From Escherichia phage ECO07P2: a stretch of 64,000 nucleotides of DNA. A program made the position numbers and the translations under genes. The stretch's first letter is position 1, and every line of letters starts with the position of its first letter. A model generated the notes under the pieces. It was not told where the DNA came from. It saw only the letters and a list, made by a program, of their open reading frames with translations, and did not search any database. Shown piece after piece: positions 4,415 through 26,992 of the stretch. The stretch lies in sequence record OP172785; one strand, 5' to 3'.

Positions 4415-4701
4415 TTACGGAATGAAATGAAAGCAGCAACTGAAGCAACTAAACTGTCTTCAATATAAACTTCAATTTTTACCGGAGCTTCTGACTCAAA
4501 TTTACCTGTTACCACACCCTGAAAAATACTTTCAGTCTGTTCTGGCTTTGAAAAATTTTCAGAAGGAAAAATTCCGAACTTTTTATCTGTTCCAAAAATT
4601 TTAATAAATTCATCGTAAACTGCTTCATTAAAAGCATTATCAACAGGAATAACGCCTTCAACTACAAGTTCTTGACCTAAAAAGCGCAAAGAAGATTTCA
4701 T
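4411..4701 (-). CDS. hypothetical protein (alt-adjacent small ORF)
   Basis: 96 aa ORF with SD-like aggaacacaaaATG; preceded by early promoter cassette at 4733-4762. Confidence 0.45.
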   Translation of the reverse strand: MKSSLRFLGQELVVEGVIPVDNAFNEAVYDEFIKIFGTDKKFGIFPSENFSKPEQTESIFQGVVTGKFESEAPVKIEVYIEDSLVASVAAFISFRK

Positions 4702-4732
4702 TTTGTGTTCCTCATGTTATGTCAGTAAGACT

Positions 4733-4762
4733 ACTATAACACAACATGAGGAACTTGTAAAC
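4733..4762 (-). promoter_or_regulatory. early-type sigma70 promoter (-35 GTTTAC, TGn-extended -10 TATAGT)
   Basis: revcomp reads GTTTAC-18nt-TGTTATAGT; flanked by 12-bp perfect inverted repeat 4707-4718/4743-4754; near-identical copy at 19622-19651. Confidence 0.55.
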
Positions 4763-6819
4763 TACATTTTGAACTTTTTAGACATTCCGTTAATGTTAAC
4801 CAAAGAAGCTAAGATTTGAGAAACTTCGTTTTCCTCTTCTTTTGATTCTTCTACAAGGAATTGATTAAATCCAGCCATTGGACGAACTTCACCAGTTTCC
4901 ATTAAATGGTCGCCATCATATACTGATTCTTCTAATTGTTCAGAAGGAGGAACGATTGTACCTTCGATTAGATACTTGTTATAAGCAGTTTCTTTCATAA
5001 AGTAAGTACTTACTTTATTAATCTTCAGTAAAATTCCACGTGGTAGAATAACTTCAGCTTCTGATGGAAATCCTGATAAATGACCTGGAACGATAACTTT
5101 GATTCGCTCAGCTCCTTTAATTACCATACCCACGCTAGTTTCAGCATCTTCATTAGCATATGTAGAATGACTACCCATATACATCAAATCTTCAGCATCA
5201 ACAGAACCTTCTCCTTCACCAGAAAATACTGCGCCGGAATCATCTAGAGCCATATAGTTTTTACCATGCTCACCGAAGATATTTGGTTTAAGCGATGTGG
5301 ATACGAAGTTCTTGAAATAGAACATTTTATTTTCAATGTTATGACGCAAAGTTTTAAAAGTAACTTCTTGTCCACGATAAAGCGTAGTTCCTGGAGGAAG
5401 AACTGAACCTTTAGCGAATGCAGAATCCATTGTCTCGATGTGTTTAATGGCTCGTTCCATGTATTCTTCACGGGTAGAATCTGGTTTACCCAAGAGGAAC
5501 GAGTTCATTTCAACATATGAATCTGCACAATAATCTTCAATTACATCAGACTCAGCCTGAGTTAATCCTTTTGGAGTTACTTCAGTACTTGCATATTCAT
5601 ATGCCTGGGCAGCAGATTCATTAATCAATTTATAAATGCCATTCATGACAAATTGAATAATAGCTACCTTTTCGTCTGGCGTGGCTTTAGAACCTTTAAC
5701 TAAATCATTGATAATTTTCTTAATAACATCAAAGCTATTAGAAATATTAATATCAGCAAGATCGCTTAAAATTTTATCAGTTTTATAATCAAAGAATTCT
5801 TTATTTTCTAAATATTCTTGAGAACCTTGATATGTTATATCGCTCTGCAACTTGATGGATGGATCACGTAAACGTGCATGGGCTAATGCAATATGATTTC
5901 GGAAGTTTTCTAGTTCATAATCGCTAGATTTAAAACGAGAAGCACTTCTCATACCACCGATAGCTCCTTTGCTGAAGTTTGAACCAATCTGAATAACGCC
6001 AGAGTTCATTGGTCCTTCTGCTTTATATACCGGAACTTTAGATTCAAACTCTTGATATTTCTTGGCAGCGAAGCTATCACCCTGAAGCGAAGCATCTACA
6101 GTAGAATATTGAGCTTGCGCTGCTAATCGACGACTAATTTTAGTTTTCTGAATAACAGCTTGATCCGTGCGCTTATCATTTTCTAAAGCAATAGAAGCAG
6201 CAACAGCAACAGCTTTAGGAACAGCATTACCTGTTTTAACATCTACATAAACATCACCAACCTTTGATTCAACTTTTGTGAATAACTCAGTTGAAATAGG
6301 AGGTACACCTGGAATGTCTTCTAAATTGGTATTTTTACGGTAAACCATAATATATGCATACTTTTTATCATAATCCCAGATTTCCTTTAAAAGAACATAT
6401 CGACCTGCTCCTTTAGTACGTACTAAACGGTCAGCAATAACTTGCATTTGACGAGCTGCGCCATTTGTTTTACTTTTTAGTACGCGGAATAGGCATGCGT
6501 CAATTTTATACTGTTTCATTGTTTGAAGAGCAGTATCAAAAACCGCATTAATAACACCAATTGGATTTCCACCCAAGTTTTTAAGTTTAACTAATGATAA
6601 TTTCTCATTAACACCTATCATTACGATATGCATCATTTTATCGCCTGGCTTAACGTTTTTATTTGTATCACCGCCAGAGGTGTATGTACAAAATCTAAAT
6701 CCAGGAAGCACACTTTCTTCACCGGCTTGAATAGCGAAAATTTGAGGTATTTTATGCTTAGGATTTAAGTTAACAACCGGCGCCGAAGCGCCGTCAAATA
6801 ATTCTGTAATAAGTTCCAT
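4762..6819 (-). CDS. Alt-family mono-ADP-ribosyltransferase, paralog A
   Basis: 685 aa; N-terminus MELITELFD shared with neighbouring paralog; C-terminal ART motifs LYRG, FVSTSL, EAEVILPRG (R-S-E type). Confidence 0.8.
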   Translation of the reverse strand: MELITELFDGASAPVVNLNPKHKIPQIFAIQAGEESVLPGFRFCTYTSGGDTNKNVKPGDKMMHIVMIGVNEKLSLVKLKNLGGNPIGVINAVFDTALQTMKQYKIDACLFRVLKSKTNGAARQMQVIADRLVRTKGAGRYVLLKEIWDYDKKYAYIMVYRKNTNLEDIPGVPPISTELFTKVESKVGDVYVDVKTGNAVPKAVAVAASIALENDKRTDQAVIQKTKISRRLAAQAQYSTVDASLQGDSFAAKKYQEFESKVPVYKAEGPMNSGVIQIGSNFSKGAIGGMRSASRFKSSDYELENFRNHIALAHARLRDPSIKLQSDITYQGSQEYLENKEFFDYKTDKILSDLADINISNSFDVIKKIINDLVKGSKATPDEKVAIIQFVMNGIYKLINESAAQAYEYASTEVTPKGLTQAESDVIEDYCADSYVEMNSFLLGKPDSTREEYMERAIKHIETMDSAFAKGSVLPPGTTLYRGQEVTFKTLRHNIENKMFYFKNFVSTSLKPNIFGEHGKNYMALDDSGAVFSGEGEGSVDAEDLMYMGSHSTYANEDAETSVGMVIKGAERIKVIVPGHLSGFPSEAEVILPRGILLKINKVSTYFMKETAYNKYLIEGTIVPPSEQLEESVYDGDHLMETGEVRPMAGFNQFLVEESKEEENEVSQILASLVNINGMSKKFKM

Positions 6820-21269: not shown

Positions 21270-22439
21270 TTAAAAATATTTTTTAAAACCCATCATAACT
21301 TTATCATCAACATCATTATCAATCTGTGCTACAAGGTAAGATGACAGTTCTACTTCTTGTGGCGCGGATTGAACATTATCAGAATTAAGATATTCACGAA
21401 TCCAAGGATACGGGTGTTTAACCGGAGCATCGGTAATTGGGCATGGAAGACCACACTGTTTCATACGAGATACAGTTAAGTAATCAATAAAGCTCCACAT
21501 GCTATTTGTATTTAATCCAGGAACATCGCCATCTTTAAATAAATGAACTGCCCAGTCTTTTTCTTGACGGTTAACTTCCATGAAAATATCAACTGCTTCT
21601 TGTTCACACTCTTGAGCAATTTTAACCCATTCATCGCCATCAGTGCCAAGTTGAAGTTGACGAATAATATATTGAGTGCCTTTAAGGTGAAGCTGTTCAT
21701 CACGAGCAATGAACTTCATAATCTTGGCATTACCTTCCATGATTTCCATGTTCTTATGGAAGTTAAAGGTACATGCGAAAGATACATAAAAACGAATAGC
21801 TTCCAACGCGTTGATTACATGGAGGCAAAGGTAAAGAGATTTCATTAGTGCTCGTTTAGTACATTCAACAACTTTGCCTAATTCGTCTTTACGAAATCCT
21901 TCTGATAAAATTCCTTCATAATCTTCAATCGCGTTTTGGTATTCACGAGTCTTAACTAGAACATCATCATAATAGCGACCAATGGACTCGGCACGTTTCA
22001 TGATAGCTTTATCTAATACAATCTCATCAAATACCTTTGATGGATCAGTATAAAGATTTCGCATGATATGGGTATATGAACGGCTGTGAATAGTTTCACT
22101 AAAAGTCCATGTAGCAACCCATGTATCAAGACTTGGGTCTGAAATTAACGACATAAGTACAGCAGACGGTGCACGACCCTGAATGCTATCTAGAAGTGAT
22201 TGATACTTCAAGTTATTAGTAAAAATATCTTGCTGATACTGAGGAAGCTTGTTAAATTGCGCAGCATCCATCATTAAGTTTACTTCTTCAGGACGCCAGA
22301 AAAATGATAATTGCTTTTCGGTTAAATCTTCAAAAACTTTATGGCGTTGAATATCATAACGCGCAATACCAAGACCTGAACCGAAGAACATGGGTTCTTT
22401 TAAAACATCGACTGGATTTGTATTAAAAACTGTAGACAT
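21270..22439 (-). CDS. nrdB: ribonucleotide reductase small subunit
   Basis: 389 aa continuous ORF (no intron). Confidence 0.9.
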   Translation of the reverse strand: MSTVFNTNPVDVLKEPMFFGSGLGIARYDIQRHKVFEDLTEKQLSFFWRPEEVNLMMDAAQFNKLPQYQQDIFTNNLKYQSLLDSIQGRAPSAVLMSLISDPSLDTWVATWTFSETIHSRSYTHIMRNLYTDPSKVFDEIVLDKAIMKRAESIGRYYDDVLVKTREYQNAIEDYEGILSEGFRKDELGKVVECTKRALMKSLYLCLHVINALEAIRFYVSFACTFNFHKNMEIMEGNAKIMKFIARDEQLHLKGTQYIIRQLQLGTDGDEWVKIAQECEQEAVDIFMEVNRQEKDWAVHLFKDGDVPGLNTNSMWSFIDYLTVSRMKQCGLPCPITDAPVKHPYPWIREYLNSDNVQSAPQEVELSSYLVAQIDNDVDDKVMMGFKKYF

Positions 22440-22474
22440 ATTATTCTCGCTTATTATGGGTTTAAATTATTTAA

Positions 22475-23266
22475 TCACATATTGTGTATAAGCACTTCAG
22501 TCTGAAATGATGCACCTTTCTTTTGCTTCCTATACATGGTTTCAAAATATTCAATTTTGAAATTATTAGAAAGTGCCCAATCTTTTAAAATATAATTGTT
22601 AATATCGTCTGATAGATTATTAGTGATAATAAATTTAGACTTTGATTGTTTAATTTTGTCTAATAATTCTAATTCATCCTTTTCTTCCCAGCCTGAATAT
22701 TTAAATTTAGTAGAAAGATATGGTGGGTCAATGAATAAATTTTTGTTTTCAAAATCCAAATCTCTGAATGATTTATTACTAAATGTAAATCGGTGCTGTC
22801 TATTTTTAAATTCAGAAAATTTATCCTGTTGAGACTTGTTAAAAGAAGTTCTGGAATACTTGGCTCTATTGGCGAAAGCCGCGTTATAATTTCCATTACT
22901 AGAAAATCGGATTAACGAACTGAATGAAAATAAATGTAAAACATAAAGATATAATCCGTTTTTGGTTTTATCGTATTCTTTTGACAGATTATAAAAAGGT
23001 GCTGAATCTTTGTCATTCAAATTAAAATCTTCAATAATTTTAACTATATCATTAATTGAAGATGATTTCATCTTTTTATACATGTCTATAAGAGGAGTAT
23101 TAATATCATTACATATAACATCTCTCTGACAATTCATAGAAAATCCAAGACCACCACAAAAAGCATCCAAAACAGGCTTATCGTCAAAGCGGTTTGAAAA
23201 TTGTCTAATAAATGGCATATACTTATGTTTTGCACCTGGATATGTTATGGCAGGTAGGTCTTTCAT
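22475..23266 (-). CDS. Dam-family (D12 class, alpha-type) N6-adenine DNA methyltransferase-like protein
   Basis: 263 aa; N-terminal YPGAK and DAFCGGLG (motif I FxGxG), C-terminal DPPY catalytic motif; architecture parallels E. coli/T4 Dam. Confidence 0.7.
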   Translation of the reverse strand: MKDLPAITYPGAKHKYMPFIRQFSNRFDDKPVLDAFCGGLGFSMNCQRDVICNDINTPLIDMYKKMKSSSINDIVKIIEDFNLNDKDSAPFYNLSKEYDKTKNGLYLYVLHLFSFSSLIRFSSNGNYNAAFANRAKYSRTSFNKSQQDKFSEFKNRQHRFTFSNKSFRDLDFENKNLFIDPPYLSTKFKYSGWEEKDELELLDKIKQSKSKFIITNNLSDDINNYILKDWALSNNFKIEYFETMYRKQKKGASFQTEVLIHNM

Positions 23267-23277
23267 ATTATTTCTCG

Positions 23278-23295
23278 TTGTTGGTGACTCGTCCG
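23278..23295. other. hairpin TGACTC-GTCCGT-GAGTCA between nrdA and MTase gene
   Basis: 6-bp inverted repeat in 43-bp intergenic gap. Confidence 0.35.
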
Positions 23296-23309
23296 TGAGT
23301 CAAATTATA

Positions 23310-25574
23310 TCATAATTTACAGGATGAACAATCTTCAGCTTTTGGAGTTTCTATTTCATAATCATCAGTACCAGAACCATCGCGGGTATTATGATAATAG
23401 AAATTTTTTCCGCCAAAATACCAAAAATACAAAAGGTCATCAATCATTATTGACATTGGAACCTTTCCTTTTGGAAAAATCTGCGGGTCATAATATGTAT
23501 TCGCTGAAGCTGATTGACATACCCATTTCAGCATAATAGCTACCTGCGTAAGATAAGGTTTATTACCTTTCTTAGCTAATTTCCACGTATAATCATACAG
23601 GTCTATGTTATGCTCAATATTGGGCACGACTTGATTAAAGGAACCCTCTTTTGATTCTTTAACAGAGACTGGTCCACGTGGAGGCTCGATACCGTTTGTA
23701 CTGTTAGAAACTTGGGAAGATGACTCACATGGCATAAGTGCTGATAATGTGCTATTACGGATGCCAAAGAGCTTAAGGTCTTCCCGCAGCGCCGACCAGT
23801 CACAAACGTATTTTGGAGCTGCGATTTGGTCAATCTTTTTATTGTACCAGTCGATAGGTAATTCGCCTCGAGACCAACGAGTGTCTGAATAATATTCGCA
23901 AGGTCCTTTTTCTTTGGCGAGCTTAATGGATGCTTTAATGAGTCCATACTGTAATCTCTCAAATAGTTCATGTGTTAAATCGTTAGCATCTTCATAAGAA
24001 GCAAAGTTACTTGCCAGCCAAGCTGCATAGTTAGTAACACCTACGCCAAGGTTTCGACGCTTTTTAGCTTTTTCTGCTTCAGGAACTGGATATCCTTGGT
24101 AGTCCAAAAGATTATCAAGAGCACGAACTTGGACTTCTGCTAATTCATTAATTTTATCTTGGTCTTGCCAATCGAAGTTATCTAACACAAATGCAGATAA
24201 TGTACACAATCCAATTTCAGCATCATGACTATTCACATCATTTGTTGGAATAGCAATTTCACAGCACAAGTTGCTCTGACGAATAGGTGCCTTTTCACGA
24301 ATAAATGGCGTATAGTTATTCGTATTATCAATGAACTGCACATAAATCCTTGCTGTTCCTGAGCGTTCAGTCATGAGCAATTCAAACAGTTCACGGGCTT
24401 TAATACGCTTTTTGCGAATATTAGGGTCTTTTTCTGCGGCTTCGTATAATTCACGGAAACGGTCTTGGTCTTTAAAATAAGAATAATAAAGCTCGCCACC
24501 CATTTCGTGTGGACTGAACAAAGTAATGTAGTCGTTCTTTCCAAAACGTTCCATCATCAAATCATTCAGTTGAACGCCATAATCCATATGACGGATACGG
24601 TTTTCTTCTACGCCTTTGTTATTTTTCAAAACGAGAAGATTTTCAACTTCCAAATGCCAAATAGGATAATAAGCAGTAGCAGCGCCGCCACGAATTCCAC
24701 CCTGTGAGCATGATTTAACAGCAGTCTGAAAATGTTTCCAAAAAGGAATAACACCAGTATGGCGTACTTCACCTGTGCCAATCTTAGAACCTTCGGCACG
24801 AATCATACCAACGTTAATGCCGATTCCAGCACGTTTGGAGATATATTCAACAATTGAAGCGGAAGCCTTATTAATAGACTTTAATGAATCACCTGCCTCA
24901 ATAACAACGCATGAACTAAACTGCCGAGTCGGAGTACGGCAACCAGCCATAATAGGAGTTGGCAATGAAATCTGTCGAGTAGATACTGCTTCATAAAAAC
25001 GAATAACATGTTTTAATCTATCAATAGGTTCATCTTGATGCAATGCCATTCCAATAGTCATAAATGCAAACTGTGGAGTTTCATAAATTTGACCAGTGGT
25101 TTTATCTTTAACTAGATATTTTTCTTTTAATTGCATCGCCCCGGAATAAGTAAATTCCATATCCCGCTCATGCTTAATTTTTGATTCTAAAAATGTAATT
25201 TCTTCAGCAGAATATTTTGACAACAATTCAGGGTCATATTTACCTTCATTTACACAGTAAGAAATATGGTCAATAAATGAACGGGGTTCATACTGTCCAT
25301 AAACATGCTTACGAAGAGCGAACATTAAACATCGTGCAGCTACATATTGATAATCAGGCTCTTCAACTGAAATAGAATTCGCAGCAGCCTTAATTACAAT
25401 AGTTTGAATGTCATCAGTGGTCATTCCATCACGGAGATATGATTTAATATTTTCATATAATTCATAAGGATCTACAGATGTTCCTTCAGCTGCCCAAGAT
25501 AAAACTTTAATAATTTTTTGCGGGTCAAAGCTCTGAGAAACACCACTACTTTTGATAACATTAATTAATTGCAT
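23310..25574 (-). CDS. nrdA: ribonucleotide reductase large subunit
   Basis: 754 aa; length matches T4 NrdA; adjacent to nrdB. Confidence 0.95.
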   Translation of the reverse strand: MQLINVIKSSGVSQSFDPQKIIKVLSWAAEGTSVDPYELYENIKSYLRDGMTTDDIQTIVIKAAANSISVEEPDYQYVAARCLMFALRKHVYGQYEPRSFIDHISYCVNEGKYDPELLSKYSAEEITFLESKIKHERDMEFTYSGAMQLKEKYLVKDKTTGQIYETPQFAFMTIGMALHQDEPIDRLKHVIRFYEAVSTRQISLPTPIMAGCRTPTRQFSSCVVIEAGDSLKSINKASASIVEYISKRAGIGINVGMIRAEGSKIGTGEVRHTGVIPFWKHFQTAVKSCSQGGIRGGAATAYYPIWHLEVENLLVLKNNKGVEENRIRHMDYGVQLNDLMMERFGKNDYITLFSPHEMGGELYYSYFKDQDRFRELYEAAEKDPNIRKKRIKARELFELLMTERSGTARIYVQFIDNTNNYTPFIREKAPIRQSNLCCEIAIPTNDVNSHDAEIGLCTLSAFVLDNFDWQDQDKINELAEVQVRALDNLLDYQGYPVPEAEKAKKRRNLGVGVTNYAAWLASNFASYEDANDLTHELFERLQYGLIKASIKLAKEKGPCEYYSDTRWSRGELPIDWYNKKIDQIAAPKYVCDWSALREDLKLFGIRNSTLSALMPCESSSQVSNSTNGIEPPRGPVSVKESKEGSFNQVVPNIEHNIDLYDYTWKLAKKGNKPYLTQVAIMLKWVCQSASANTYYDPQIFPKGKVPMSIMIDDLLYFWYFGGKNFYYHNTRDGSGTDDYEIETPKAEDCSSCKL

Positions 25575-25891
25575 AAGTCCTCAACTTGAAAATCGTCTTT
25601 AAACAATCGGTTAACTATATGAGCTATTATATCACCATGACACGGCTTTGGTTTACATGTGCATCCTAGCCTCATTCCACGTAAAGGCTCTAAATGTGCT
25701 TTAGTTATTTCTCCGGATTTAATTCGACGTATAAAATCTTTTTTGAATAATTCAATGGCAGCCTCCCGGCTGCCAGCATCTTTACCGACGTAATTTCCCC
25801 AAAATGTACCACGGTGAATATTAACATCAAAGTCGGATTTATATTTATTCACTACCCGGCATAGACGGCCCACGTTGGAATAATTCGTCAT
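25565..25891 (-). CDS. DUF4326-like protein
   Basis: 108 aa; GNYVGKD...[21 protein letters not shown] resembles DUF4326 core (CHGD motif); overlaps nrdA start. Confidence 0.5.
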
Positions 25892-26120
25892 ATTGTTTTT
25901 CCGTTAAAACAGTAATATCATAGTAACAATCAGAAGAAGTTTTAACTGTAGAAATTTTATTATCAAAATACTCACGAGTCATTTTATGAGTATAATACTT
26001 TTTACCATAAATGATAATAGGTTGTTCTGGTCCTGGAACTTCTAACTCGCTTGGATTAGGAAGTGTAAAAAGAACGATACCAGAAGTATCCTTAAATCGT
26101 AAAATCATATATCCTCTCAA
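25845..26120 (-). CDS. hypothetical protein
   Basis: 91 aa ORF; 47-nt overlap with downstream ORF makes exact ends uncertain. Confidence 0.35.
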
Positions 26121-26131
26121 TTAAATTAAAA

Positions 26132-26992
26132 TTACACCGCCATCTTTCCTTTCAGGACACCGTGGGACTGATAATCTTTGAGAACGAAATCCCGTGCTGT
26201 CATATATTCCGTTAACCAATACATCTGAGTTTCAGTATCGCATTGACTGAATCCATTAGGCCAATTAATACTGAGTTTGCATAGATCCATAGGAGTTCTA
26301 TTTAATATCTCTTTGCATTGCTCAATATGGTTAGAATAAATGTGTGTATTACCACCCGAGAATACCAAATCGCCCGGAACTAGTTCACACATGTCAGCAA
26401 CAATATGTAAAAGAGCAGCATAACTCGCGATGTTAAATGGAAGACCGAGGAAAACATCTACCGAACGTTGATACCATTGGAGATCGAGGTATCCGTTACG
26501 CACATTAAACTGATAGAACATATGACAAGGTGGTAATGCCATCTGCTTGAGTTCAGCTGGATTCCATGCCGACACAATTTGACGTCTATCATTGGGAAAT
26601 GTTTTAATACGATTAACAACTTCTACAATTTGGTCTACACCACCAAAATCGCGCCATTGTTTTCCGTAAATTGGACCAAGTTCACCGCTATGATAACCTA
26701 AGTCTTTAGCCTGGTTTTCGTAGTTTTCATCCCAAATTGTTTTTCCTGCAATTAAAGATCCATGAGTACGTTGACGTAAATCATTTACGTTAGTACTTCC
26801 TGATAAGAACCACAATAACTCAGAAATACATGCATTCCAGGCGAGCTTCTTAGTTGTTACTGCAGGAAAACCTTTAGTTAAATCCCAGCGTAATTTAGTA
26901 CCGAACAAAGCAATTGTTCCTGTGCCCGTTCGGTCATCGGTTTCATAACCGTTTTCAAAAATGTCTTTAATTAAATCTTGGTATTGTTTCAT
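26132..26992 (-). CDS. td: thymidylate synthase
   Basis: 286 aa continuous ORF (no intron). Confidence 0.95.
   Translation of the reverse strand: MKQYQDLIKDIFENGYETDDRTGTGTIALFGTKLRWDLTKGFPAVTTKKLAWNACISELLWFLSGSTNVNDLRQRTHGSLIAGKTIWDENYENQAKDLGYHSGELGPIYGKQWRDFGGVDQIVEVVNRIKTFPNDRRQIVSAWNPAELKQMALPPCHMFYQFNVRNGYLDLQWYQRSVDVFLGLPFNIASYAALLHIVADMCELVPGDLVFSGGNTHIYSNHIEQCKEILNRTPMDLCKLSINWPNGFSQCDTETQMYWLTEYMTARDFVLKDYQSHGVLKGKMAV

What the first reader, a model, noticed from the sequence alone, without database searches (positions are those of the whole stretch)
22475..23266. Dam-family adenine methyltransferase-like gene between nrdB and nrdA
The sequence shows the YPGAK box, the FxGxG AdoMet motif (DAFCGGLG) and a C-terminal DPPY in the alpha-class order typical of Dam/D12 enzymes. 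In T4 as I recall it, this slot holds nrdA.1, nrdA.2 and the homing endonuclease mobE, and dam maps elsewhere in the genome. This would therefore be either a relocated dam or a second, divergent methyltransferase with possibly new specificity, which could act in anti-restriction or epigenetic control.
Basis: partly seen in the sequence, partly recalled or inferred. Interest (0 to 1): 0.65.

Follow-up and report, generated by a model that had tools for sequence, protein, structure and literature searches.

The report
Divergent Dam-like methylase cassette between nrdA/nrdB
A T4-like phage carries an intact but divergent DNA adenine methyltransferase gene as a rare single-gene insert between its two ribonucleotide reductase genes; it is real and moves between phage genera, but it is an ordinary member of a well-known enzyme family and is already annotated in GenBank relatives.

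Summary
Window 22475-23266 (minus strand) is an intact 263-aa ORF between nrdA and nrdB. It has YPGAK, DAFCGGLG and DPPY in alpha-class order. It matches Pfam PF02086 over its full length (E 5.5e-24), and the closest solved structure is T4 Dam (E 4e-38; model TM 0.83).

It is not the T4 dam orthologue. It is about 35% identical to T4 Dam, scores below the NCBIfam Dam cut-off (94 vs 115 bits), and forms its own 50%-identity cluster among 1.84 billion representatives.

Only 8 of 50,697 phage records carry it, and it is always in the nrdA-nrdB slot, across at least three named genera plus two unclassified phages. The alleles evolve under purifying selection (dN/dS 0.12-0.17), and the cassette has been swapped between lineages.

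One carrier (BGP) also has canonical dam; the other six readable carriers do not. The window ends about 3 kb short of the dam locus, so its own genome cannot be judged.

GATC-contact residues are mostly kept, but Pro126 is Ala and 6-7 residues are inserted at the Arg130 contact. GATC or a relaxed GAT-core specificity is therefore likely but unproven.

GenBank relatives already call it "dam" or "DNA adenine methylase". Verdict: a new member of a known kind, of low to moderate interest.

The parts
22475..23266 (-). 263-aa ORF encoding an orphan D12-class (T4-Dam-like) N6-adenine DNA methyltransferase; 28% GC against 36-38% in the flanking genes
23228..23242 (-). YPGAK, residues 9-13. This is the N-terminal Dam motif; its Lys aligns with T4 Dam K11 and EcoDam K9.
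23144..23167 (-). DAFCGGLG, residues 34-41: the AdoMet-binding FxGxG motif I
22847..22924 (-). Residues 115-140, FSSLIRFSSNGNYNAAFANRAKYSRT, the predicted DNA-recognition beta-hairpin. F115, S116, L118, R120, A130 and F131 align with T4 Dam F111, S112, M114, R116, P126 and F127. A clade-specific 6-7-residue insertion sits at the T4 R130 position; pLDDT there is about 64.
22718..22729 (-). DPPY, residues 180-183: catalytic motif IV, invariant in all alleles and homologues aligned
23267..23309 (-). 43-nt spacer between nrdA and the methyltransferase gene. It holds the conserved short hairpin TGACTCACGGACGAGTCA (23285-23302), which is also present in relatives that lack the gene. The left cassette junction follows the hairpin, then a weak GAG Shine-Dalgarno sits 8-10 nt before the ATG.
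22440..22474 (-). 35-nt spacer between the methyltransferase gene and nrdB. The right cassette junction lies just upstream of the nrdB ribosome-binding site (TAAGCGAGAATAAT-ATG).
23310..25574 (-). nrdA, the upstream flank. It is the likely source of read-through transcription and provides a homology arm for cassette exchange.
21270..22439 (-). nrdB, the downstream flank; intron-less. Codon 42 is AAG (22314-22316), the T2-type MobE nick site.

Best explanation
The ORF encodes a functional orphan AdoMet-dependent DNA N6-adenine methyltransferase with the T4 Dam fold. It belongs to a divergent sister lineage of T4 Dam, not to the orthologue.

Inferred mechanism. AdoMet binds at the FCGG motif. 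The target adenine is flipped into the DPPY pocket. The site is read by a beta-hairpin that keeps the aromatic intercalator (F115), the orphan-thymine contact (S116) and the Arg that reads the G:C pair at position 4 (R120). The most likely target is therefore GATC or a GAT-core site. Ala replacing T4 Pro126, and a 6-7-residue insertion at the first-base-pair contact, may loosen or shift specificity.

Gene organisation. The gene is a promoter-less, single-gene cassette of about 827 bp, made up of the ORF plus the 35-nt spacer that follows it. It sits after the nrdA stop codon and a conserved hairpin, and before the nrdB ribosome-binding site. It is therefore probably transcribed with nrdA and nrdB early or in the middle of infection, in time to methylate replicating phage DNA.

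Spread. The cassette moves between T4-like phages by homologous recombination through the conserved nrdA and nrdB flanks, a known hot spot for homing endonucleases. It can be lost or displaced in the same way.
For: Family and fold: Pfam D12, full length. PHROG 56. PADLOC's best model is 'orphan methyltransferase', E=9e-40. T4 Dam is the best solved relative by sequence and by fold: the AlphaFold model has pLDDT 87 and TM 0.83 to 1yf3/1yfl.

Catalytic and AdoMet residues are invariant across the alleles and distant homologues aligned.

Functional constraint: dN/dS is 0.12-0.17 between allele groups at dS of about 0.9-1.3.

Recognition residues were mapped through the alignment with T4 Dam and EcoDam. 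The EcoDam contact roles come from PMC4417163.

Orphan status: the neighbours are nrdA and nrdB, and no nuclease gene is present.

Same slot in every context seen: Tequatrovirus, Gelderlandvirus, Marfavirus, the unclassified fDHCT2 and EP02SG, and metagenome contigs.

Lateral exchange: in EP02SG the gene is 95-97% identical to the window but the flanks only 73-84%. In BGP the flanks are 94-100% identical but the gene only 77-89%. BGP's allele is 91.5% identical to Gelderlandvirus CF-SP2, whereas their nrdA genes are 79% identical.

Clean junctions against the 51-nt spacer of ECP2301, which lacks the gene.

Expression: no promoter-like signal above chance. mobE, in the same T4 slot, was shown experimentally to be promoter-less and co-transcribed with nrdA (PMC2790892).
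Against: No methylation data exist for this protein or any allele, so activity and specificity are inferred.

The score is below the NCBIfam Dam-subfamily cut-off (94.1 vs 114.85 bits).

Pro126 is replaced, and the insertion lies exactly where T4 Dam contacts the first G:C pair. The alignment there is ambiguous: T4 R130 aligns with R134 under HMMER and with R139 under MAFFT.

The B alleles carry Lys instead of the key Arg, so specificity may differ within the clade.

Coexistence with canonical dam in BGP would be redundant if both enzymes methylate GATC.

Co-transcription is argued by analogy with mobE, not measured here.
Confidence: 0.75

Rival explanations
1. It is simply the phage's Dam: an enzyme with the same strict GATC specificity that replaces a lost canonical dam (non-orthologous displacement), with nothing new in biochemistry.
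For: Six of the seven carrier genomes that can be read have no other Dam-like gene: ev240, NR1, 236Ecol005PP, EP02SG, CF-SP2 and fDHCT2. F, S and R of the recognition hairpin, and an Arg near the R130 position, are conserved in the window allele. T4 Dam is the closest relative.
Against: Canonical dam is itself missing from many T4-like phages, so its absence in carriers is close to the base rate. About 454 of roughly 900 nrdAB-matching records have any Dam-like hit, and 10 of 10 contigs sharing the window's Mod protein lack it. BGP has both genes. Pro126 is replaced and there is an insertion at the R130 site.
Confidence: 0.45
2. It is a natural enzyme with relaxed or shifted specificity, like the T4 dam-h mutant. 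It would methylate GAT-core or GAY sites beyond GATC and so give wider anti-restriction cover, for example against type III enzymes such as EcoP1I when glucosylation is incomplete.
For: The residue aligned with T4 Pro126 is Ala in the window and Ser in the B alleles; no allele has Pro. From memory (Miner, Schlagman and Hattman 1989, not retrievable here), the T4 dam-h hypermethylating mutant is P126S. [quoted passage not shown] Coexistence with canonical dam in BGP makes more sense if the specificities differ.
Against: This rests on one substitution and a remembered mutant phenotype. Other Dam-family members that lack this Pro are uncharacterised here. There is no functional data.
Confidence: 0.25
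3. It is a neutral or selfish passenger. The gene persists only because it sits in a recombination hot spot and hitch-hikes on gene conversion driven by homing endonucleases. It gives the phage no benefit and may be inactive.
For: It is rare and patchy: 8 of 50,697 records. The slot is a documented homing hot spot; MobE nicks nrdB codon 42 and co-converts the flanks (PMC2790892). The gene is AT-rich compared with its flanks.
Against: There is strong purifying selection over deep divergence (dN/dS 0.12-0.17, dS about 1). All catalytic motifs are intact in every allele. The cassette encodes no nuclease that could drive its own spread.
Confidence: 0.08

Closest known systems
Phage T4 Dam (M.EcoT4Dam; PDB 1Q0S, 1YF3, 1YFJ, 1YFL)
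   Same: Best hit by sequence (E=4e-38 over residues 4-252) and by fold (TM 0.83). Similar length (263 vs 259 aa) and the same alpha-class motif order. K11, FCGG, F111, S112, R116, F127 and DPPY are conserved. Both are orphan enzymes in T4-like phages, and both genes are about 28% GC.
   Different: Only about 35% identical. It lies at a different locus: the nrdA-nrdB slot rather than 56-dam-61. It scores below the TIGR00571 cut-off, where T4 Dam scores 239 bits. P126 becomes Ala, M114 becomes Leu, and 6-7 residues are inserted at R130. The two genes can coexist in one genome, BGP.
E. coli Dam and DpnM (M.DpnIIA), the bacterial GATC methyltransferases
   Same: Same D12 family and fold (Foldseek E about 1e-14, TM 0.70-0.75). 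The Arg that reads the G:C pair at position 4 (EcoDam R124), the aromatic intercalator (Y119/F) and Leu at the L122 position are conserved.
   Different: Very distant in sequence: 16-18% identity in the structural alignment, phmmer E=1e-4 to 3e-6. EcoDam P134 is not conserved. The first-base-pair contact is arranged as in T4 (an Arg after the hairpin), not as in EcoDam (K9).
T4 mobE, the free-standing HNH homing endonuclease cassette in the same nrdA-nrdB slot
   Same: Both are promoter-less single-gene inserts between nrdA and nrdB. Both have a patchy distribution among T4-like phages and are probably expressed by read-through from nrdA.
   Different: mobE encodes a nuclease that drives its own spread by nicking nrdB. 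This cassette encodes only a methyltransferase and has no recognisable means of moving itself. Its transfer must rely on ordinary recombination or on co-conversion started by other elements.

Membership tests
D12-class N6-adenine DNA methyltransferase (Pfam PF02086) | Profile score above the Pfam gathering threshold over the whole domain | tested here: met
   85.7 bits against a cut-off of 22, E=5.5e-24, profile positions 1-251 of 253
D12-class N6-adenine DNA methyltransferase (Pfam PF02086) | Catalytic DPPY (motif IV) and AdoMet-binding FxGxG (motif I) in alpha-class order, with the recognition region between them | tested here: met
   DAFCGGLG at residues 34-41, hairpin at 115-140, DPPY at 180-183; invariant in the alignments
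D12-class N6-adenine DNA methyltransferase (Pfam PF02086) | Dam-type fold | tested here: met
   The model (pLDDT 87) matches T4 Dam at TM 0.83 (E=1e-21), EcoDam at 0.70-0.75 and DpnM at 0.73
Dam family, NCBIfam TIGR00571 (subfamily model) | Score at or above the curated cut-off of 114.85 bits | tested here: not met
   Window 94.1 bits and BGP slot allele 70.2 bits; T4 Dam scores 239.5 bits. The match is significant (E=1e-26) but below the trusted cut-off.
Orthologue of T4 dam | Conserved position between gene 56 (dCTPase) and gene 61 (primase), and close sequence identity | tested here: not met
   It lies between nrdA and nrdB and is about 35% identical. BGP carries a true dam at the 61-dam-56 locus as well as this gene.
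GATC-specific Dam enzymes | Conservation of the base-contact residues (T4 F111, S112, M114, R116, P126, R130; EcoDam Y119, N120, L122, R124, P134) | tested here: inconclusive
   F, S, L and R are kept. P126 is Ala. An Arg is available for R130, but next to a 6-7-residue insertion where the alignment is ambiguous. The B alleles have K at R116.
GATC-specific Dam enzymes | m6A made at GATC | not testable with these tools
   This needs a methylome or a restriction-sensitivity assay.
Type II restriction-modification system | A cognate restriction endonuclease gene next to the methyltransferase gene | tested here: not met
   The neighbours are nrdA and nrdB in every context seen. The best PADLOC model is 'orphan methyltransferase'.
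Free-standing homing-endonuclease cassette (mobE/seg type) | Encodes an HNH or GIY-YIG nuclease | tested here: not met
   Only the D12 domain is found over the full length. Separately, the 144-aa GIY-YIG ORF downstream of nrdB is denA.

The most novel reading that the evidence does not exclude
The nrd-slot methyltransferases would be a naturally occurring, horizontally traded family of Dam enzymes with relaxed or altered specificity. All alleles lack the Pro that, from memory, is mutated in the T4 dam-h hypermethylating mutant, and all carry a conserved insertion at the first-base-pair contact. The allele groups (Arg vs Lys at the position-4 contact) would differ in target site. T4-like phages would then have a swappable epigenetic anti-restriction module that is complementary to canonical dam rather than redundant with it.
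Probability: 0.2. Interest if true: 0.5.

Novelty: new member of a known kind. Interest (0 to 1): 0.25.

Why it matters
If the enzyme is a plain GATC Dam, this is a tidy example of non-orthologous gene displacement and cassette traffic in the T4 nrd hot spot, useful for annotation but not surprising. The protein should be labelled 'Dam-like, divergent', not 'dam'.

If its specificity is relaxed or shifted, it would supply natural variants at the exact positions known to set Dam specificity. It would also help explain the host range of therapeutic T4-like phages on strains with adenine-methylation-sensitive or methylation-dependent defences.

Either way, the question can be settled cheaply with one expression clone and one methylome.

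Tried and rejected
1. Looking for a canonical dam in the window's own genome. The window covers roughly T4 coordinates 115 kb, through the record end, to 13 kb. It stops about 3 kb short of the 56-dam-61 locus. tblastn of T4 Dam against the window hits only this ORF.

2. Extending the window. I tried an exact-match scan of viral contigs and looked up contigs encoding the window's last two proteins. None of those contigs is the same genome; the best are 97-98% identical. L025 has a canonical dam and the other ten do not, so the question stays open. L018 is 100% identical across the cassette but does not reach the dam locus.

3. Searching for a dedicated promoter or terminator. Sigma-70-like sites are at chance level (25 found vs 20.3±4.8 in shuffles). 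There is no MotA-box/-10 match within two mismatches, no late promoter TATAAATA, and no terminator in the slot. The post-nrdA hairpin is weak (z=-1.1).

4. Testing mutual exclusion with canonical dam. This was rejected as a strong argument, because BGP has both genes and about half of T4-like records have no Dam at all.

5. Testing whether the recognition hairpin is unusually variable between alleles. It is variable (0.60 of columns), but no more so than the helical region at residues 51-90 (0.60-0.67).

6. Retrieving the T4 Dam structure papers (PMC2656680, PMC2672621, PMC4030375) and the dam-h paper. None is held. T4 residue roles are therefore mapped from the EcoDam paper PMC4417163, and the dam-h fact is marked as memory.

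7. Literature search for a description of this gene in the nrd slot. None was found.

Full report
**What is there.** Window 22475-23266 on the minus strand is an uninterrupted 263-aa ORF. It lies between nrdA (23310-25574) and nrdB (21270-22439), which are on the same strand.
- YPGAK at residues 9-13
- DAFCGGLG at residues 34-41
- DPPY at residues 180-183

The order is that of alpha-class N6-adenine methyltransferases. The match is not a chance pattern:
- Pfam PF02086 (MethyltransfD12): 85.7 bits against a gathering score of 22, E=5.5e-24, covering 251 of 253 profile positions.
- PHROG 56 'DNA methyltransferase': E=9e-36.
- PADLOC best model, 'orphan methyltransferase': E=9e-40.

The window is a T4-like (Tequatrovirus) genome segment. 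The gene order is alc, rnlA, denA, nrdB, methyltransferase, nrdA, nrdA.1, nrdA.2, td, frd, and flanking DNA is 96-97% identical to several Tequatrovirus records.

In T4 the nrdA-nrdB slot holds mobE and nrdB.1. nrdA.1 and nrdA.2 lie between td and nrdA, and the window has them there as well (25565-26120). T4 dam does map elsewhere, between gene 56 and gene 61. The 144-aa GIY-YIG ORF just downstream of nrdB is denA, not a homing endonuclease.

**What kind of methyltransferase it is.**
- The closest solved structure by sequence is T4 Dam (E=4e-38, aligned over residues 4-252). E. coli Dam and DpnM are far behind (E=1e-4 and 3e-6).
- An AlphaFold model (mean pLDDT 87, pTM 0.86) matches T4 Dam-DNA complexes at TM 0.83. 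It matches EcoDam at 0.70-0.75 and DpnM at 0.73.
- Identity to T4 Dam is only about 35%.
- The protein scores 94.1 bits on the NCBIfam Dam subfamily model TIGR00571. That is below the curated cut-off of 114.85; T4 Dam scores 239.5.
- In an exhaustive HMMER scan of 1.84 billion 50%-identity representatives, only its own cluster reaches E<1e-30. The next hit is 34% identical and belongs to the T4 Dam-like group, being 52% identical to T4 Dam.

It is therefore a distinct, deep-branching lineage next to T4 Dam. It is not a relocated orthologue.

**Distribution and context.** Only 8 of 50,697 phage records carry the gene:

| Phage | Group | Nucleotide identity to window |
|---|---|---|
| T4_ev240, 236Ecol005PP, vB_Eco_NR1, EP02SG | Tequatrovirus, except EP02SG (unclassified) | 97-99% |
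| vB_Eco_BGP | Tequatrovirus | 81% |
| Salmonella phage CF-SP2 | Gelderlandvirus | 79.5% |
| Escherichia phage fDHCT2 | unclassified | 78% |
| Klebsiella phage PhiKpNIH-6 | Marfavirus | 74% |

The large protein collection holds four 90%-identity clusters of this protein. In every context I could read, the gene sits directly between nrdA and nrdB; the exception is the 905-bp contig for P0002, which shows no neighbouring genes.

Most close relatives have an almost empty slot. ECP2301 has a 51-nt spacer. Alignment of the junctions shows that the cassette begins after a conserved short hairpin that follows the nrdA stop codon, and ends just before the nrdB ribosome-binding site. The insert amounts to about 827 bp: the ORF plus the 35-nt spacer that follows it. 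It has no terminal repeats and no nuclease gene. Its GC content is 28%, against 36-38% in the flanks; T4 dam is also 28%.

**Is it functional?** All alleles are full length, with invariant FCGG and DPPY motifs. Between the window allele and the BGP/CF-SP2/fDHCT2 allele group, dN/dS is 0.12-0.17 at dS of about 0.9-1.3. That is clear purifying selection over a divergence as deep as that of nrdA between genera.

**Lateral movement.** Sliding-window identity and gene-by-gene comparison show two discordances:
- EP02SG carries a gene 95-97% identical to the window, but its flanks are only 73-84% identical.
- BGP has flanks 94-100% identical to the window, but its gene is only 77-89% identical. BGP's allele is 91.5% identical to that of Gelderlandvirus CF-SP2, while their nrdA genes are 79% identical.

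The cassette has therefore been exchanged between lineages and always lands in the same slot. This fits homologous recombination through the conserved nrdA 3' and nrdB 5' sequences.

The slot is a documented recombination hot spot. In T4, MobE nicks nrdB at codon 42 of mobE-less phages and co-converts the flanking DNA (PMC2790892). The window's nrdB has the sensitive T2-type AAG at codon 42. I infer that a cross with a mobE-bearing phage could replace the cassette, which would help explain its patchy distribution.

**Relation to canonical dam.**
- The window ends about 3 kb before the 56-dam-61 locus, and T4 Dam finds nothing else in the window.
- I could not recover the source genome.
- T4_ev240 has no dam between genes 56 and 61.
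- ev240, NR1, 236Ecol005PP, EP02SG, CF-SP2 and fDHCT2 each show only one Dam-like place by tblastn.
- BGP carries both a canonical 259-aa dam at the 61-dam-56 locus and the slot gene.
- About half of T4-like records have no Dam-like gene at all, and 10 of 10 contigs sharing the window's Mod protein lack dam.

The absence of canonical dam in most carriers is therefore close to the base rate and does not prove replacement.

**Likely mechanism and specificity.** I mapped the protein onto T4 Dam and EcoDam, taking the EcoDam contact roles from PMC4417163:

| EcoDam | T4 Dam | Window | Role (from EcoDam) |
|---|---|---|---|
| Y119 | F111 | F115 | aromatic intercalator |
| N120 | S112 | S116 | orphan-thymine contact |
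| L122 | M114 | L118 | contact to an inner base pair (with P134) |
| R124 | R116 | R120 | reads the G:C pair at position 4 |
| P134 | P126 | A130 (Ser in B alleles) | contact to an inner base pair (with L122) |

- An Arg is available for the T4 R130 first-base-pair contact. It is R134 in the HMMER alignment and R139 in the MAFFT alignment.
- A conserved 6-7-residue insertion (RAKYSRT) sits exactly there, and the model is least confident at that point.
- The first-base-pair contact is known to be the least conserved in the family (PMC4417163).
- From memory only, T4 dam-h (relaxed specificity) is P126S. I could not retrieve that paper.
- The B alleles have Lys at the key Arg.

My best reading is a GATC or GAT-core methyltransferase, possibly with loosened discrimination. 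I put roughly 55-60% on predominantly GATC.

**Expression.** No promoter-like or terminator-like signal above chance lies in the slot. mobE, in the same T4 slot, was shown to be promoter-less and co-transcribed with nrdA. Read-through transcription with nrdA and nrdB is therefore the most likely mode of expression, but this is an inference.

**Comparison with what is known, and verdict.** Membership of the D12 class and the Dam-type fold is established. Membership of the curated Dam subfamily is not met on score. Orthology with T4 dam is refuted by position and divergence. GenBank relatives already label the gene 'dam' or 'DNA adenine methylase' by homology. I found no paper that describes it.

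It is a new, uncharacterised member of a well-known kind of enzyme, carried on a small recombination-borne cassette. Interest is low to moderate. The only route to something notable is a specificity that proves non-canonical, which one methylome experiment would settle.

Noticed in passing
whole window (1-64000): GATC is the most depleted palindromic tetramer: 66 occurrences against about 216 expected from a second-order Markov estimate (ratio 0.31). Other tetramers fall between 0.73 and 1.39.
   Followed up: partly
window 23285-23302 (minus strand): A short hairpin, TGACTCACGGACGAGTCA, follows the nrdA stop codon. It is conserved in phages with and without the methyltransferase gene and across genera; fDHCT2 has loop changes that lengthen the stem. 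It is thermodynamically weak (-7.5 kcal/mol, z=-1.1) and has no U-tract. Its function is unknown.
   Followed up: partly
window 21270-22439 (nrdB) and 26132-26992 (td): Both genes are intron-less, and mobE, I-TevI and I-TevIII are absent. nrdB codon 42 is AAG (22314-22316), the T2-type site that MobE nicks according to PMC2790892. This phage should therefore be a recipient in mobE homing.
   Followed up: partly
window 21600-22200 (inside nrdB): This is a mosaic patch. It is only 91-95% identical to ev240 and NR1, with indels (nrdB is 389 aa here, 392 aa there), while the surrounding DNA is 97-100% identical. It may be a footprint of past intron or homing-endonuclease gene conversion.
   Followed up: no
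L007 (BGP) 4501-5292; L002 and L003 (CF-SP2, fDHCT2), the equivalent gene: The B-type alleles have Lys instead of the Arg that reads the G:C pair at position 4, and a different hairpin tip (FSSMLKFSKDDKYIASF against FSSLIRFSSNGNYNAAF). Specificity may therefore differ between alleles. BGP, which has this allele, is the one carrier that also has canonical dam.
   Followed up: partly
L033-L042 and L025 (gp61-gp56 interval of relatives): The canonical dam locus is itself variable. It is empty (only a 66-aa antisense ORF) in 8 of the 10 contigs L033-L042. It holds a 216-aa NUMOD3-type ORF in two (L037, L039). In L025 and BGP it holds a 186-aa ORF plus dam.
   Followed up: no
window 23267-23278; protein P0001: Some relatives are annotated with a start four codons upstream (MRNN-MKDL). 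In the window that upstream codon is ACG, so the ATG at 23264-23266 is the start. In the B alleles a strong GAGGAG Shine-Dalgarno precedes the same second ATG, which suggests the 267-aa database models are over-extended.
   Followed up: partly
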